Source: a virus (lineage: Duplodnaviria > Heunggongvirae > Uroviricota > Caudoviricetes). From it: a stretch of 49,715 bases of DNA. The stretch spans positions 1 to 49,715 of IMG/VR virus record IMGVR_UViG_2851949629_000006. One strand, given 5' to 3'. The position numbers and the translations under genes are program-made. The notes beneath the pieces were generated by a model. That model was not told the origin of the DNA. It did not search any database and saw only the letters and a list, made by a program, of their open reading frames with translations. This document shows, one piece after another, positions 1,580 to 42,410 of the stretch (positions are counted from its first letter, which is position 1; each line of letters opens with the position of its first letter).

Positions 1580-2113
1580 TTATTTATTAGTGAGTACTAC
1601 GTTCCATGGCAGGAGTTCGTCAACTCGGTTGGAAGGCCATTCCGGCAGTACGCTCAGGATATGGCGCAGATACGCTTCCGGATCGATACCATTCAACCGG
1701 CAGGTGCCGATCAGCCCGTACAACAGTGCACCACGCTCGCCGCCGTGATCGCTACCGAAGAACACGTAATTTTTCTTTCCGAGACAGACTGCACGAAGCG
1801 CTCTTTCCGCTGTGTTATTGTCCGCCTCCGCCAGACCGTCATCACAGAAGTTGCACAACGCAACCCAGTGCTTCCTGATATACCGGAACGCATCTCTCAG
1901 ACGGCATTTTTTCGATAACGTGTGTTCTTTCTCCTGCATCAGCTTATACAGGGAAGTCAGTAGCGGTTTACTCTGCATTTGCCTGACCGCCAGGCGTTCA
2001 GACACCGGCAACCCGCGTATTTCGTGCTCAATGGCGTACAGTTCGCCGATTAGTTTCAGTGCTTCTTCCGCCGTCGCGCTTTTGGTACTGATATATACAT
2101 CGTGGATTTTGCG
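1580..2113 (-). pseudogene. tnpC: IS66 transposase TnpC, C-terminal fragment of copy 3 (cut by copy 2 insertion)
   Basis: ORF translation aligns with the C-terminal ~140 aa of the full 537-aa TnpC but with substitutions; reading frame runs up to the copy-2 terminus at 2114. Confidence 0.75.
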
Positions 2114-14797: not shown

Positions 14798-15607
14798 ATG
14801 AGCAGACATGCAACAGATTGGGCCTGGGAGACAGATCCAGGTAGCTCGTCATTAAAGCTCATACTGCTCTCGATGGCTGACAGAGCCGATGAATATAACC
14901 TCTGCTACCCCAGCATAGAACGCCTCGTTAAAGACACTTGCCTGAATAAAAAAACCGTGCAGGCCGGGCTTATATCGCTCATGAAAATGGGGCTTATTTC
15001 AGATACCGGAGAGAGAAAGGGAGCGACGAAAAGAGTGCGGGTTTTCTCTCTTAATATAACCAAAAACGGGAACATTAAAGGCAACCTAGAAGGGGGTAAT
15101 GACCCCGAAAACGGTAATGTTCCCGAAAACGGGAATATACCCAAAAACGGGATGTTGAATGATCCCAAAAACGGGATCCAGAACCAGTCATATAACCAGT
15201 CATTTAACCAAGAGAGGGAGAGCAGGACAAAAACCGGGGATTCTGTGCCTCATGACCCCGGCGCAAACAACGCCGTGATGAATAACTTTGTTCCTCCTGG
15301 TGGGCCAGGGCAATTAGGCAAATTTGTCATGCATGAACAATGGTAGCCATCAGATGACTTTCTTCGGAAAAGCTCATTGCAGGGAATCTACCTGGACAGT
15401 CTGCCAACGGCACAGGAACTTGCAGAGTTCAGAATTTACTGGATGGCTGAGGGGAAGGCATACCATCAGGCACAGTGGGAGCAGAAGCTGGCAAGGCGCA
15501 TCCAGTTCTGTAGACAGAAATCAGGTGAAGTCAGAAAGAGCCTTGACTGGCATAACACTGACTGGATAGATGAGGTGTGGGATGAAATCAACTCCAGAAC
15601 TTCTTAA
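14798..15607 (+). pseudogene. lambda O-like replication initiator, interrupted by an in-frame amber codon (TAG at 15344-15346); N-terminal part 14798-15346, C-terminal part continues in the same frame to 15607
   Basis: N-terminal HTH and a linker encoded by iterons, as in lambda O. Both halves are in the same reading frame, separated by a single TAG. Confidence 0.55.
15060..15176. repeat. origin-like iterons inside the O-like gene: five copies of CC(C/A)(A/G)AAAACGG(G/T)A
   Basis: Copies at 15060, 15104, 15122, 15140, 15164 (spacing 18/18/24 bp for the last four), followed by the direct repeat AACCAGTCAT x2 at 15182-15204. Confidence 0.65.
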
Positions 15608-16364
15608 TGAGTACGATCGCTTTCGTGGTGGGCATGACCACTCGACGGCGGTTGCTTCTGCTGACGATGAAAGGGCAAAGAAGGAGCAGGTTGCAAGAAT
15701 TTTCAACGAAATGTTTGTCCAGTTACAGGCTGCATTTCCAGGCAGCATCGCTGCTATCAGCGAGCAAGGAAAGCTAAACGAATTTCGAAAACAATGGATG
15801 CTTGCGTTTCTGGAGAATGGGATCACAACAATGGAACAGGTTAACGCTGGTATGCGCCACGCCCGCGCCAGTGAATCTCCGTTCTGGCCGTCGCCAGGGC
15901 AATTTATCAAGTGGTGTAAAGACAGCAAGATGGTTCTTGGCGTCACCATTGACGATGTGATGGCGGAGTTTCACCGGTACAGCAAGGAAAAAAGTTTATA
16001 TCCTGGTGGCCCCGAAAGATTCCCGTGGCGACATCCGGTTATGTACTGGGTCGTATGTGATACCCGCCGTGCAATGTATCAGCGCCAGCTTAGCGAGATT
16101 GAGGTTGAGAAACACGCACGCAGGCTGCTCGATGATTGGGCGAAAAAGGTGGCTTCCGGACAGCAGATACCCGATCCGGTGATCAGCATACAGGCAAAGC
16201 CAGAACCCATGAGTACGCCTCCGGACACAGGGAGAGACGTTTACCACCCGCCAGGGCGAAGTTTCGGGTGCATGCCTAACGCCGCCACCCTGGGGGGAAT
16301 AACACCGGCGCAGTGGCTGATGGAGGAATACAGGCGGGGAAAGGCGGCAGGATTTATCAAGTAA
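15582..16364 (+). CDS. lambda P-like replication protein (helicase loader)
   Basis: Contains ...ENGITTMEQVNAGMRHARASESPFWPSPGQFIKWCKD..., closely matching my recollection of the lambda P segment GITTMEQVNAGMR...PSPGQF. Start ATG at 15582 with RBS GAGGTG; overlaps the end of the O-like gene. Confidence 0.7.
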   Translation: MKSTPELLNEYDRFRGGHDHSTAVASADDERAKKEQVARIFNEMFVQLQAAFPGSIAAISEQGKLNEFRKQWMLAFLENGITTMEQVNAGMRHARASESPFWPSPGQFIKWCKDSKMVLGVTIDDVMAEFHRYSKEKSLYPGGPERFPWRHPVMYWVVCDTRRAMYQRQLSEIEVEKHARRLLDDWAKKVASGQQIPDPVISIQAKPEPMSTPPDTGRDVYHPPGRSFGCMPNAATLGGITPAQWLMEEYRRGKAAGFIK

Positions 16365-42142: not shown

Positions 42143-42296
42143 GATGGTGTCTCCACTTAGCGAATTACATCACCACCGCAACGCCAATTACTGGTGGTGA
42201 ACTGAACAAGGTTGGCGTACCGGCCTAAGTGGTACCGGCGTCCTTTCGGACCCCTGCCCAGCCCACCATAATTCGGATATAGCTGTGCTTAACGCA

Positions 42297-42320
42297 TAAA
42301 AAAACCACGTCTGGCGTGGT
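42297..42320 (-). terminator. intrinsic terminator/attenuator within the ant leader (or 3' end of a small RNA)
   Basis: Minus strand reads ACCACG-CCAGA-CGTGGT followed by seven T (plus strand A-run 42298-42304); located about 110 nt downstream of the predicted ant promoter and about 150 nt upstream of the ant start codon. Confidence 0.5.
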
Positions 42321-42410
42321 ATGCGCCACTTAGTAACTCGGGACGCCAATCCCGGCACTGGATTTTGCCAGTGCCCGATTACTATGGCACAAGAGGAGTG
42401 CGATGTAAAT

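What the first reader, a model, noticed from the sequence alone, without database searches (positions are those of the whole stretch)
15060..15204. Iteron-type origin embedded in the initiator gene
Five copies of CC(C/A)(A/G)AAAACGG(G/T)A, four of them spaced at 18/18/24 bp, followed by the tandem AACCAGTCAT x2. They encode the repetitive NGN...ENGN...KNG linker of the O-like protein, reproducing the lambda ori-in-O arrangement.
Basis: partly seen in the sequence, partly recalled or inferred. Interest (0 to 1): 0.45.

Follow-up and report, generated by a model that had tools for sequence, protein, structure and literature searches.

The report
Prophage replication origin inside initiator gene
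The repeats are very probably the replication origin of an epsilon15/phiV10-type prophage, written into the flexible middle of the gene for the protein that binds it, as in phage lambda; it is an ordinary kind of origin, but its layout is conserved in a large, little-studied family of phage initiators.

Summary
Window 15059-15176 holds five 13-bp repeats: four exact matches where shuffles give none, and one with a single mismatch. Spacing is 45/18/18/24 bp. The tandem AACCAGTCAT follows.

They lie in the linker of the replication initiator of a Uetakevirus (phiV10-like) prophage. A lambda-P-type helicase loader gene follows directly.

The initiator is not a lambda O family member by Pfam. It has an HTH_36 winged helix and a DnaT-like C-terminal domain, as in the published DopC/DopE pair.

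In 61 of 64 diverse homologous loci a repeat array sits at this position. Spacing falls into two modes, 17-18 and 22-24 bp. The repeat sequence tracks the DNA-binding domain, and the dyad arms change together. In 48 of 62 loci the same DNA motif is read in two or three frames, so selection acts on the DNA.

I also found a second conserved element after the last repeat: three 12/13-mers carrying GAAYC, present in 52 of 63 loci.

In this window the initiator carries a nonsense mutation (CAG to TAG, 15344-15346).

The best reading is a lambda-style origin: a new member of a known kind, supported by comparison only.

The parts
14798..15607 (+). Replication initiator gene. It has three parts: a winged-helix HTH_36 domain, a linker that carries the origin, and a DnaT-like domain. 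An in-frame TAG interrupts it here.
   Evidence: Pfam HTH_36 at aa 18-67 (E 1.4e-10) and DnaT on the part after the stop (E 1.5e-10). PHROG 1032 'replication initiation protein' on both parts. Intact 263-311 aa homologues exist.
14798..15058 (+). Coding region of the N-terminal winged-helix DNA-binding domain (aa 1-87), the presumed iteron reader.
   Evidence: The domain is 99-100% conserved in 80 IMG/VR relatives. Homologues at 28-87% identity are found across phages and bacterial genomes.
15059..15071 (+). Iteron 1 (ACCAAAAACGGGA), 45 bp upstream of the next copy.
   Evidence: A first copy 45-46 bp ahead of the cluster recurs in relatives.
15104..15116 (+). Iteron 2 (CCCGAAAACGGTA).
15122..15134 (+). 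Iteron 3 (CCCGAAAACGGGA). With its flanks it reads TTCCCGAAAACGGGAA, a near-perfect dyad.
   Evidence: 14 of 20 positions match its own reverse complement.
15140..15152 (+). Iteron 4 (CCCAAAAACGGGA).
15164..15176 (+). Iteron 5 (CCCAAAAACGGGA). With its flanks it reads GATCCCAAAAACGGGATC, with 6-bp inverted arms. This is the 24-bp unit that expands in relatives.
15179..15214 (+). Second conserved origin element: CAGAACC followed by three 12-mers (AACCAGTCATAT, AACCAGTCATTT, AACCAAGAG). [GT]AACC falls at 15181, 15193 and 15205. It is the candidate unwinding or single-strand binding element.
   Evidence: Homologous triplets with GAAYC at offsets 2, 14/15 and 27 occur in 52 of 63 loci, against 0.04 expected. 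The motif is read in different frames. The 30-mers starting at 15180 and 15190 are among the 5% least stable in the window.
15206..15234 (+). Purine-rich tract (AACCAAGAGAGGGAGAGCAGGACAAAAAC) that closes the strand-asymmetric origin region.
   Evidence: Region 15059-15240 is 41% A, 13% T and 66% purine, in the top 0.07% of windows of that length.
15344..15346 (+). Nonsense codon TAG in place of CAG (Gln183). It removes the DnaT-like domain and the C-terminal tail.
   Evidence: It is unique among 91 relatives. The same 182-aa product is encoded on contigs from two samples of public sequencing runs.
15347..15604 (+). Coding region for the DnaT-like ssDNA-binding domain and the C-terminal tail (LDWHNTDWIDEVW...). 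It is in frame but lies downstream of the stop.
   Evidence: Pfam DnaT. PDB DnaT C-terminal domain entries 6aep and 4ou6, E about 1e-19.
15582..16364 (+). Lambda-P-type helicase loader gene, overlapping the end of the initiator gene.
   Evidence: Pfam Phage_lambda_P, E 4.2e-53, and PHROG 109. The start is placed by homology with the RefSeq annotation of L007.

Best explanation
Window 15059-15234 is the vegetative (theta-type) replication origin of a phiV10/epsilon15-like (Uetakevirus) prophage. It is embedded in the linker-coding part of the phage's own initiator gene.

What the sequence and the comparisons show:
- There are five 13-bp repeats with internal dyad symmetry, (A/T/C)CC(A/G)AAAACGG(G/T)A. 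They begin directly after the N-terminal winged-helix domain.
- They are followed by three 12-mers carrying (G/T)AACC and then a purine-rich tract.
- This two-part layout is conserved at the DNA level across a large family of HTH_36 initiators.

Inferred mechanism, by analogy with ori-lambda and iteron plasmids:
1. Transcription from the early rightward operon produces the initiator.
2. Dimers of its winged-helix domain bind the dyad iterons and wrap or bend the A-tract-rich DNA into an O-some-like complex.
3. The stress melts the adjacent 12-mer and purine-rich region.
4. The C-terminal part of the initiator (the DnaT-like ssDNA-binding domain plus the NTDWI tail) recruits the P-like loader bound to host DnaB onto the opened DNA.

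The linker tolerates this double duty because it is a low-complexity spacer. Iteron number can therefore drift: 3 to 11 copies are seen in natural alleles.

In this window the origin DNA is intact, but the initiator is truncated at codon 183. Without a Gln-inserting amber suppressor or a helper phage, this prophage probably cannot fire its own origin.
For: Real, non-random repeats: 4 exact copies against 0 expected, plus 1 near copy.

Gene identity and partner: an HTH_36 domain plus a DnaT domain, PHROG 'replication initiation protein', and a lambda-P loader immediately downstream. The locus lies in the early right operon of a prophage about 97% identical to Uetakevirus PAS61.

Population: 91 close relatives keep the same order and spacing (45/18/18/24/24...) while copy number varies from 4 to 9. 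Protein alleles imply 3 to 11 copies. Lambda against Stx phages shows the same behaviour, 4 against 6 iterons (PMC7466680).

Deep conservation: in 61 of 64 loci with 36-87% identical winged-helix domains, the 330 bp after the domain holds more repeats than any control segment of the same locus. The median is 5 copies, against a control maximum of 2. Spacing is bimodal at 17-18 and 22-24 bp, with an outlying first copy at 45-46 bp.

DNA-level selection: copies occupy 2 or 3 reading frames in 48 of 62 loci. For example, TCCCAAAAACGG is read as SPKNG, IPKTE and PSQKR within one Vibrio gene. In the window the repeats use the rarest Pro codon, CCC (9% usage), in 4 of 4 cases and GGG in 4 of 5.

Specificity tracks the reader domain: iteron consensus similarity correlates with winged-helix identity (Mantel rho 0.59; 0 of 999 permutations reach it). 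Homologues at about 30% identity have unrelated repeats. The two arms of the dyad change together: CCC/GGG, GTACC/GGTAC, CCCCC/GGGGG, CGGA/TCCG.

Second element: CAGAAYC plus three 12/13-mers follow the last iteron in 52 of 63 loci, against 0.04 expected. It is also present where the iterons are unrelated, and it is read in different frames.

Positional parallel with annotated origins: in lambda and P22 the iterons also start right after the DNA-binding domain.
Against: - There is no experimental evidence for this phage group. I found no paper in the searchable library that describes its origin.
- The flanking AT-rich element is weak: 63% AT, in the top 5% of least stable 30-mers but far from the window's extremes.
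- Within the window all five copies are in one frame. The window alone therefore cannot separate DNA-level from peptide-level selection; that argument rests on relatives.
- Repeat identity within one gene partly reflects recent duplication rather than constraint.
- The structure model was too poor (pLDDT 38) to confirm the fold or the disorder of the linker.
- A related Uetakevirus (ZX5) has a different N-terminal domain and no detectable repeats, so the arrangement is not universal in the genus.
- The initiator is truncated here, so function in this particular copy is doubtful.
Confidence: 0.8

Rival explanations
1. The repeats are only a slippage-prone, low-complexity peptide linker (Asn/Gly-rich). 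It is selected, if at all, for length and flexibility of the protein, and the real origin lies elsewhere.
For: All five copies in the window are in frame and encode (P/T)(K/E)NG. Copy number varies freely among near-identical phages, as expected for a tolerant linker. The adjacent AT-rich tract is weak.
Against: The same DNA motif is kept in two or three reading frames in 48 of 62 homologous loci, giving different peptides. The dyad arms change together, and the motif tracks the DNA-binding domain. Spacing classes are conserved across genera. Rare codons are used uniformly. None of this is expected for a peptide-only constraint.
Confidence: 0.07
2. The repeats are initiator-binding sites used mainly for control rather than as the site of initiation. 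Candidate roles are autoregulation, a transcriptional roadblock, handcuffing or incompatibility. In this prophage the amber-truncated N-terminal fragment would occupy them, and those of incoming relatives, as a dominant-negative exclusion factor.
For: The comparative evidence shows binding-site behaviour, not initiation itself. The truncated product keeps the whole DNA-binding domain and linker, and the allele recurs in independent read sets. A replication-inhibition phenotype linked to the lambda ori/O region has been published (PMC3349717, seen; abstract only read).
Against: The conserved 12/13-mer triplet and the strand-asymmetric tract next to the iterons are what an unwinding site looks like. 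The immediate P-type loader gene points the same way. In lambda the same sites serve initiation (PMC7466680). The nonsense allele is rare, found only in the window itself among the 91 sequences compared, which fits decay rather than a selected function.
Confidence: 0.1
3. The repeats are binding sites for a different protein, such as the prophage repressor, a Cro-like protein, host DnaA or the terminase.
For: Nothing specific. The repeats are dyad-symmetric, like many operators.
Against: The immunity region has its own over-represented palindrome, TTACCnnnnnGGTAA (13 sites against 0.75 expected). It flanks the repressor and cro-like genes and is unrelated to the iterons. The iterons occur nowhere else in the window. 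Across the family they co-vary with the initiator domain encoded immediately upstream. They do not resemble the DnaA box TTATCCACA (established knowledge).
Confidence: 0.03

Closest known systems
Ori-lambda inside gene O, and its relatives in P22 gene 18 and Stx phages 933W and P27
   Same: - Four or more dyad-symmetric direct repeats lie inside the initiator gene and start right after the N-terminal DNA-binding domain.
- The repeats are read in varying frames and vary in copy number between relatives.
- A strand-asymmetric, easily melted region with short 11-13-bp repeats follows them.
- A P-type loader gene comes next (P22 has a DnaB-type helicase gene instead).
- The motifs even resemble each other: lambda ATCCCTCAAAACGAGGGA against ATCCCAAAAACGGGAT here.
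(PMC7466680.)
   Different: - The initiator does not match Pfam Phage_rep_O. BLASTP is not significant and hhalign gives only 38% probability.
- The C-terminal domain is DnaT-like, not the lambda O C-terminal domain.
- The iteron core is 13-14 bp rather than 18-19 bp.
- The flanking element is three GAAYC 12/13-mers at 63% AT, not the lambda A-rich tract.
- The host phage is an epsilon15-like podovirus.
DopC/DopE, the domesticated O/P-like pair of Cellvibrionales and Oceanospirillales (Brezellec et al. 2017, PMC5509034)
   Same: The two-gene domain architecture is identical: HTH_36 plus a DnaT C-terminal domain, followed by a Phage_lambda_P protein.
   Different: The authors report no iteron-like sequences in dopC and conclude that it no longer marks an origin. 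The window is the mobile, phage-borne form that keeps the iterons.
Iteron plasmid origins (RK2 TrfA, F RepE, R6K pi) and oriC
   Same: Both have arrays of initiator sites beside a DNA unwinding element made of repeated 13-mers. In those plasmids winged-helix Rep proteins also bind one strand of the unwinding element (PMC4081077 and PMC10602881; abstracts seen).
   Different: In those plasmids the origin is intergenic, not inside the rep gene. There was no Pfam hit to plasmid Rep families for the window protein. Helicase loading here would go through a lambda-P-type loader.

Membership tests
Lambdoid ori-in-initiator origin (ori-lambda type) | An array of at least four direct repeats with internal dyad symmetry, located inside the initiator gene between its N- and C-terminal domains. 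| tested here: met
   Five copies at codons 88-127, between HTH_36 (aa 18-67) and the DnaT-like domain.
Lambdoid ori-in-initiator origin (ori-lambda type) | The repeats are constrained as DNA rather than as peptide, and their specificity is tied to the N-terminal domain. | tested here: met
   Met in homologues: two or three frames are used in 48 of 62 loci, the Mantel rho is 0.59, and the dyad arms co-vary. It cannot be separated within the window itself.
Lambdoid ori-in-initiator origin (ori-lambda type) | An adjacent AT-rich region that serves as the unwinding site. | tested here: inconclusive
   15180-15209 is 63% AT and in the top 5% of least stable 30-mers. A/T skew is strong (A 41%, T 13%). 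A conserved 12/13-mer triplet is present. The region is much less AT-rich than nearby intergenic regions.
Lambdoid ori-in-initiator origin (ori-lambda type) | A helicase-loader gene of the lambda P family immediately downstream. | tested here: met
   PF06992, E 4.2e-53; the gene overlaps the end of the initiator gene.
Lambdoid ori-in-initiator origin (ori-lambda type) | The fragment supports initiator- and loader-dependent replication, and the initiator footprints on the repeats. | not testable with these tools
   This needs plasmid replication assays and EMSA or footprinting.
Lambda O protein family (Pfam PF04492 Phage_rep_O) | A significant match of the N-terminal domain to Phage_rep_O. | tested here: not met
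   No hit even at E up to 10, whereas lambda O and P22 gp18 score E 6e-36 and 7e-38. BLASTP is not significant. hhalign gives 38% probability, E 3e-4, over the helix-turn-helix and wing.
Lambda O protein family (Pfam PF04492 Phage_rep_O) | A lambda-O-type C-terminal (P-binding) domain. | tested here: not met
   The C-terminal domain is DnaT-like. Only the extreme tail motif NTDWI resembles the lambda O end (read directly from the sequences). The homologue in Edwardsiella phage GF-2 combines the same N-terminal type and iterons with a lambda-O-like C-terminal half.
HTH_36 plus DnaT_C initiator with a P-type loader (DopC/DopE-like architecture) | An N-terminal PF13730 domain, a C-terminal DnaT DNA-binding domain, and a neighbouring PF06992 gene. 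| tested here: met
   The architecture is described in PMC5509034.
Iteron-plasmid Rep family (Rep_3 / RepE / pi / TrfA) | Sequence membership in a plasmid Rep family, with an intergenic origin. | tested here: not met
   The window protein has no plasmid Rep family among its Pfam hits; there are only weak DnaD_N and other winged-helix hits. The origin is intragenic.

The most novel reading that the evidence does not exclude
HTH_36-type phage initiators across Gamma-, Alpha- and Deltaproteobacteria may share one undescribed two-part origin design written into their own linker.

The first part is a specificity module: variable dyad iterons in a fixed 45 / 17-18 / 22-24 bp layout. The second is a nearly invariant module of three GAAYC 12/13-mers. 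It is independent of iteron type and of the C-terminal domain. It would be the universal melting or single-strand binding site, bound by the conserved winged helix in a loop-back manner or by a host factor.

In this prophage the natural amber fragment (DNA-binding domain plus linker only) might in addition act as an origin-blocking exclusion factor.
Probability: 0.3. Interest if true: 0.55.

Novelty: new member of a known kind. Interest (0 to 1): 0.35.

Why it matters
It places the replication origin of the phiV10/epsilon15 group, which includes O157 typing and serotype-converting phages and is common as E. coli prophages: 535 of 5,426 complete genomes carry this initiator gene.

It also gives a simple rule for a large, poorly annotated class of 'helix-turn-helix' or 'primosomal' phage genes. 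The origin can be read directly from the DNA just after the winged-helix domain.

The conserved GAAYC 12/13-mer triplet is a concrete, testable candidate for the unwinding or loading site.

The phage form with iterons complements the published domesticated DopC/DopE pair, which lost them.

In practice, iteron copy number is a hypervariable marker within otherwise near-identical prophages. The nonsense allele marks this prophage as probably replication-defective.

Tried and rejected
1. The full-length protein search returned only near-identical E. coli proteins in its top 120 and gave no distant homologues. I replaced it with a tblastn of the N-terminal domain against phage records and pattern scans of genome and viral collections.

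2. AlphaFold2 on a shallow alignment gave mean pLDDT 38. The secondary structure of residues 14-85 (three helices and two strands) fits a winged helix. The model is too poor for a fold search, so none was run.

3. The AT-rich or duplex-stability profile is only modest next to the iterons. The least stable sites in the area are intergenic. I therefore do not claim a lambda-like AT-rich tract.

4. The promoter and terminator scan showed no enrichment. The one 'terminator' inside the array, on the minus strand at 15167-15148, is a by-product of iteron dyads next to A runs.

5. Rfam found nothing in the region.

6. The initiator tail allele and the P N-terminus allele are perfectly associated, 53 against 16. 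The two segments are adjacent and overlapping, so this says nothing about interaction.

7. GATC sites sit inside the 24-bp units. They are present in some enterobacterial relatives but not in Vibrio or Acinetobacter ones, so they are not a family feature.

8. Literature searches found no description of this origin. The original epsilon15 and phiV10 genome papers are not in the searchable library, so prior mention there cannot be excluded.

Full report
**1. The observation**

CCMRAAAACGGKA matches exactly at 15104, 15122, 15140 and 15164, where 100 shuffles gave no match. A fifth copy with one mismatch (ACCAAAAACGGGA) lies at 15059. Spacing is 45/18/18/24 bp.

AACCAGTCAT(A/T)T is tandem at 15182-15205. 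Neither motif recurs elsewhere in the 49.7-kb window above background.

Each repeat has internal dyad symmetry once its flanks are included. Examples are TTCCCGAAAACGGGAA and GATCCCAAAAACGGGATC.

**2. The gene and its setting**

The repeats lie in ORF 14798-15346. Its first 87 residues carry a Pfam HTH_36 winged-helix domain. The in-frame continuation after the stop carries a DnaT DNA-binding domain. That domain matches solved E. coli DnaT C-terminal domains at E about 1e-19. Both parts match PHROG 1032, 'replication initiation protein'.

The next gene, 15582-16364, is a lambda-P-family helicase loader (E 4e-53). Upstream lie a two-HTH repressor gene on the minus strand, a cro-like gene and a small conserved ORF.

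The whole block is the early region of a Uetakevirus (phiV10/epsilon15-like) prophage, about 97% identical to phage PAS61 over the matched parts. This initiator gene is found in 535 of 5,426 complete E. coli genomes.

**3. A nonsense mutation in the window**

All homologues have CAG (Gln) where the window has TAG (15344-15346), and they continue for 86 more codons. Of 91 sequences compared (the window and 90 relatives), only the window stops there. The same 182-aa product is encoded on contigs assembled from public read sets (two samples), so it is unlikely to be an assembly error.

The origin DNA is intact. The initiator, however, lacks its DnaT-like domain and its C-terminal tail.

**4. Close relatives**

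Order and spacing of the repeats are fixed (45/18/18/24/24...) while copy number varies from 4 to 9, with a mode of 6. The window's 5-copy form is a minority. Protein alleles imply 3 to 11 copies. The 24-bp unit (MLNDPKNG) and the 18-bp unit expand and contract. The 12-bp unit occurs one to three times.

Lambda and Stx phages show the same behaviour, with 4 against 6 iterons adding 13 residues to O (PMC7466680).

**5. Distant relatives: the decisive evidence**

I collected loci whose winged-helix domain is 28-87% identical to the window's. Sources were a tblastn against phage records and a scan of one genome per species. The loci come from Edwardsiella, Vibrio, Acinetobacter, Pseudoalteromonas, Marinomonas, Proteus, Providencia, Burkholderia, Pseudomonas, Desulfovibrionaceae, Sphingomonadales and others.

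- **Arrays are present.** In 61 of 64 loci the 330 bp after the domain holds more copies of a 12-mer (up to 2 mismatches) than any control segment of the same locus. The median is 5, against a median control maximum of 2.
- **Spacing is conserved.** It is bimodal at 17-18 bp (77 intervals) and 22-24 bp (106 intervals). An outlying first copy sits 45-46 bp ahead (16 intervals). The window's 45/18/18/24 is the in-frame version of the 46/17/17/22/22 seen in Acinetobacter.
- **The DNA is what is conserved.** Because 17 and 22 are not multiples of three, the same DNA motif is read in two or three frames in 48 of 62 loci. In Vibrio salinus, TCCCAAAAACGG encodes SPKNG, IPKTE and PSQKR in a single gene.
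- **Specificity follows the reader domain.** Iteron consensus similarity correlates with winged-helix identity (Mantel rho 0.59; 0 of 999 permutations). Homologues at about 30% identity have unrelated repeats: Min27 GGGGCAGGAGCTGCCC and Pseudomonas phi2 CACCCCCGCAGGAAATG.
- **The dyad arms change together.** Pairs seen are CCC/GGG, GTACC/GGTAC, CCCCC/GGGGG and CGGA/TCCG. This is the signature of a site read by a dimer.

In the window itself, all four Pro codons in the repeats are CCC, the rarest Pro codon locally (9%). Four of five Gly codons are GGG (19%).

**6. A second conserved element**

Directly after the last iteron, 52 of 63 loci have CAGAAY or CGGAAY and then three 12/13-mers, with (G/T)AAYC at offsets 2, 14/15 and 27. 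The expected rate is 0.04 per 40 nt.

The element is present whatever the iteron sequence, including Min27 and phi2. It is also present whatever the C-terminal domain. It is read as QNQ, as EP or as RT depending on frame, so it too is DNA-level.

A purine-rich tract follows. Region 15059-15240 is 41% A and 13% T, with purine content in the top 0.07% of windows of that length.

The 30-mers starting at 15180 and 15190 are in the top 5% of least stable 30-mers, at 63% AT. That is far from extreme.

**7. Mechanism**

What is shown is a binding-site-like array tied to the adjacent DNA-binding domain, plus a conserved repeat triplet, inside an initiator gene and next to a P-type loader gene.

What is inferred, by analogy with ori-lambda and iteron plasmids, is this sequence:
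1. Winged-helix dimers load on the iterons and deform the A-tract-rich DNA.
2. The 12-mer and purine-rich region melts.
3. The C-terminal half recruits P-loader-bound DnaB.

The tail LDWHNTDWIDEVW resembles the lambda O end LDLTNTDWIYGVDL. The Edwardsiella GF-2 homologue joins the same N-terminal type and iterons to a lambda-O-like C-terminal half. This indicates modular exchange at the linker.

**8. Comparison with known systems**

The layout matches ori-lambda and the P22 gene 18 origin, both annotated in the records. The motif is also similar: lambda ATCCCTCAAAACGAGGGA.

Membership in the lambda O protein family fails. There is no Phage_rep_O hit and BLASTP is not significant. hhalign gives 38% probability over the helix-turn-helix and wing, aligning window residues 39-84 with O residues 71-116. 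P22 gp18 has a marginal HTH_36 hit, E 0.2.

The two-gene architecture is identical to the published domesticated DopC/DopE pair. The authors derived that pair from lambdoid O/P genes and found no iterons in it (PMC5509034).

I found no paper describing the origin of phiV10-type phages, or iterons in HTH_36 initiators. The original epsilon15 and phiV10 genome papers are not in the searchable library.

**9. Verdict**

The feature is a new member of a known kind of origin.

The family-wide two-part design and the nonsense allele are the parts worth following up. All functional claims remain comparative inference until the cloned fragment is tested.

Noticed in passing
window 15344-15346: An in-frame TAG replaces CAG (Gln183) in the initiator gene. 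It is unique among 91 relatives and recurs in public read-set assemblies (ERR052908). A supE-type suppressor would restore the wild-type residue. The prophage is probably replication-defective.
   Followed up: partly
window 13328, 13390, 14102, 14150, 16402, 16464, 20795, 20813, 24023, 41398, 42411, 43921, 45227: The palindrome TTACCnnnnnGGTAA occurs 13 times (up to 1 mismatch) against 0.75 expected. Copies often come in pairs that flank the repressor and cro-like genes and the end of the replication operon. It looks like the operator set of the prophage's own regulator.
   Followed up: no
window 42190-42374 (-): Rfam matches to C4 antisense RNA (42190-42273) and isrK (42298-42374), side by side. 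This is the kind of pair known from P1/P7-type antirepressor immunity regions.
   Followed up: no
window 23624-23700 (-): A tRNA-Arg (anticodon TCT) lies inside the prophage, between the early and late regions.
   Followed up: no
L002 (PP488543.1, 131937-138295): The 138-kb record of 'Vequintavirus' phage BP9 ends with a complete Uetakevirus early region (recombination genes, repressor, initiator, P). It is 98% identical to the window and is probably a chimeric assembly or prophage contamination. PH444 (PP350014.1, 115 kb) is similar.
   Followed up: no
L006 (phage ZX5, MW722083.1) 1242-2072: A Uetakevirus whose initiator keeps the DnaT-like C-terminal domain, the tail and the P gene. Its N-terminal half is unrelated and no repeat array is detectable. 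Its origin must be built differently or lie elsewhere.
   Followed up: partly
window 15161-15164 and 15175-15178; the 24-bp units in relatives: Each 24-bp iteron unit (GAATGATCCCAAAAACGGGATGTT) carries a GATC. Arrays therefore place Dam sites every 24 bp and could be a SeqA target. The feature is absent from the Vibrio and Acinetobacter homologues.
   Followed up: partly
L005 (CP025713.1) 1698-1940 (-), and window ORFs 14905-15168 (-) and 15075-15203 (-): The mirror-strand ORFs across the iteron array are by-products of the repeats. One is annotated as a 'putative membrane protein' in the YDC107_2 record, where the initiator gene itself is split.
   Followed up: no
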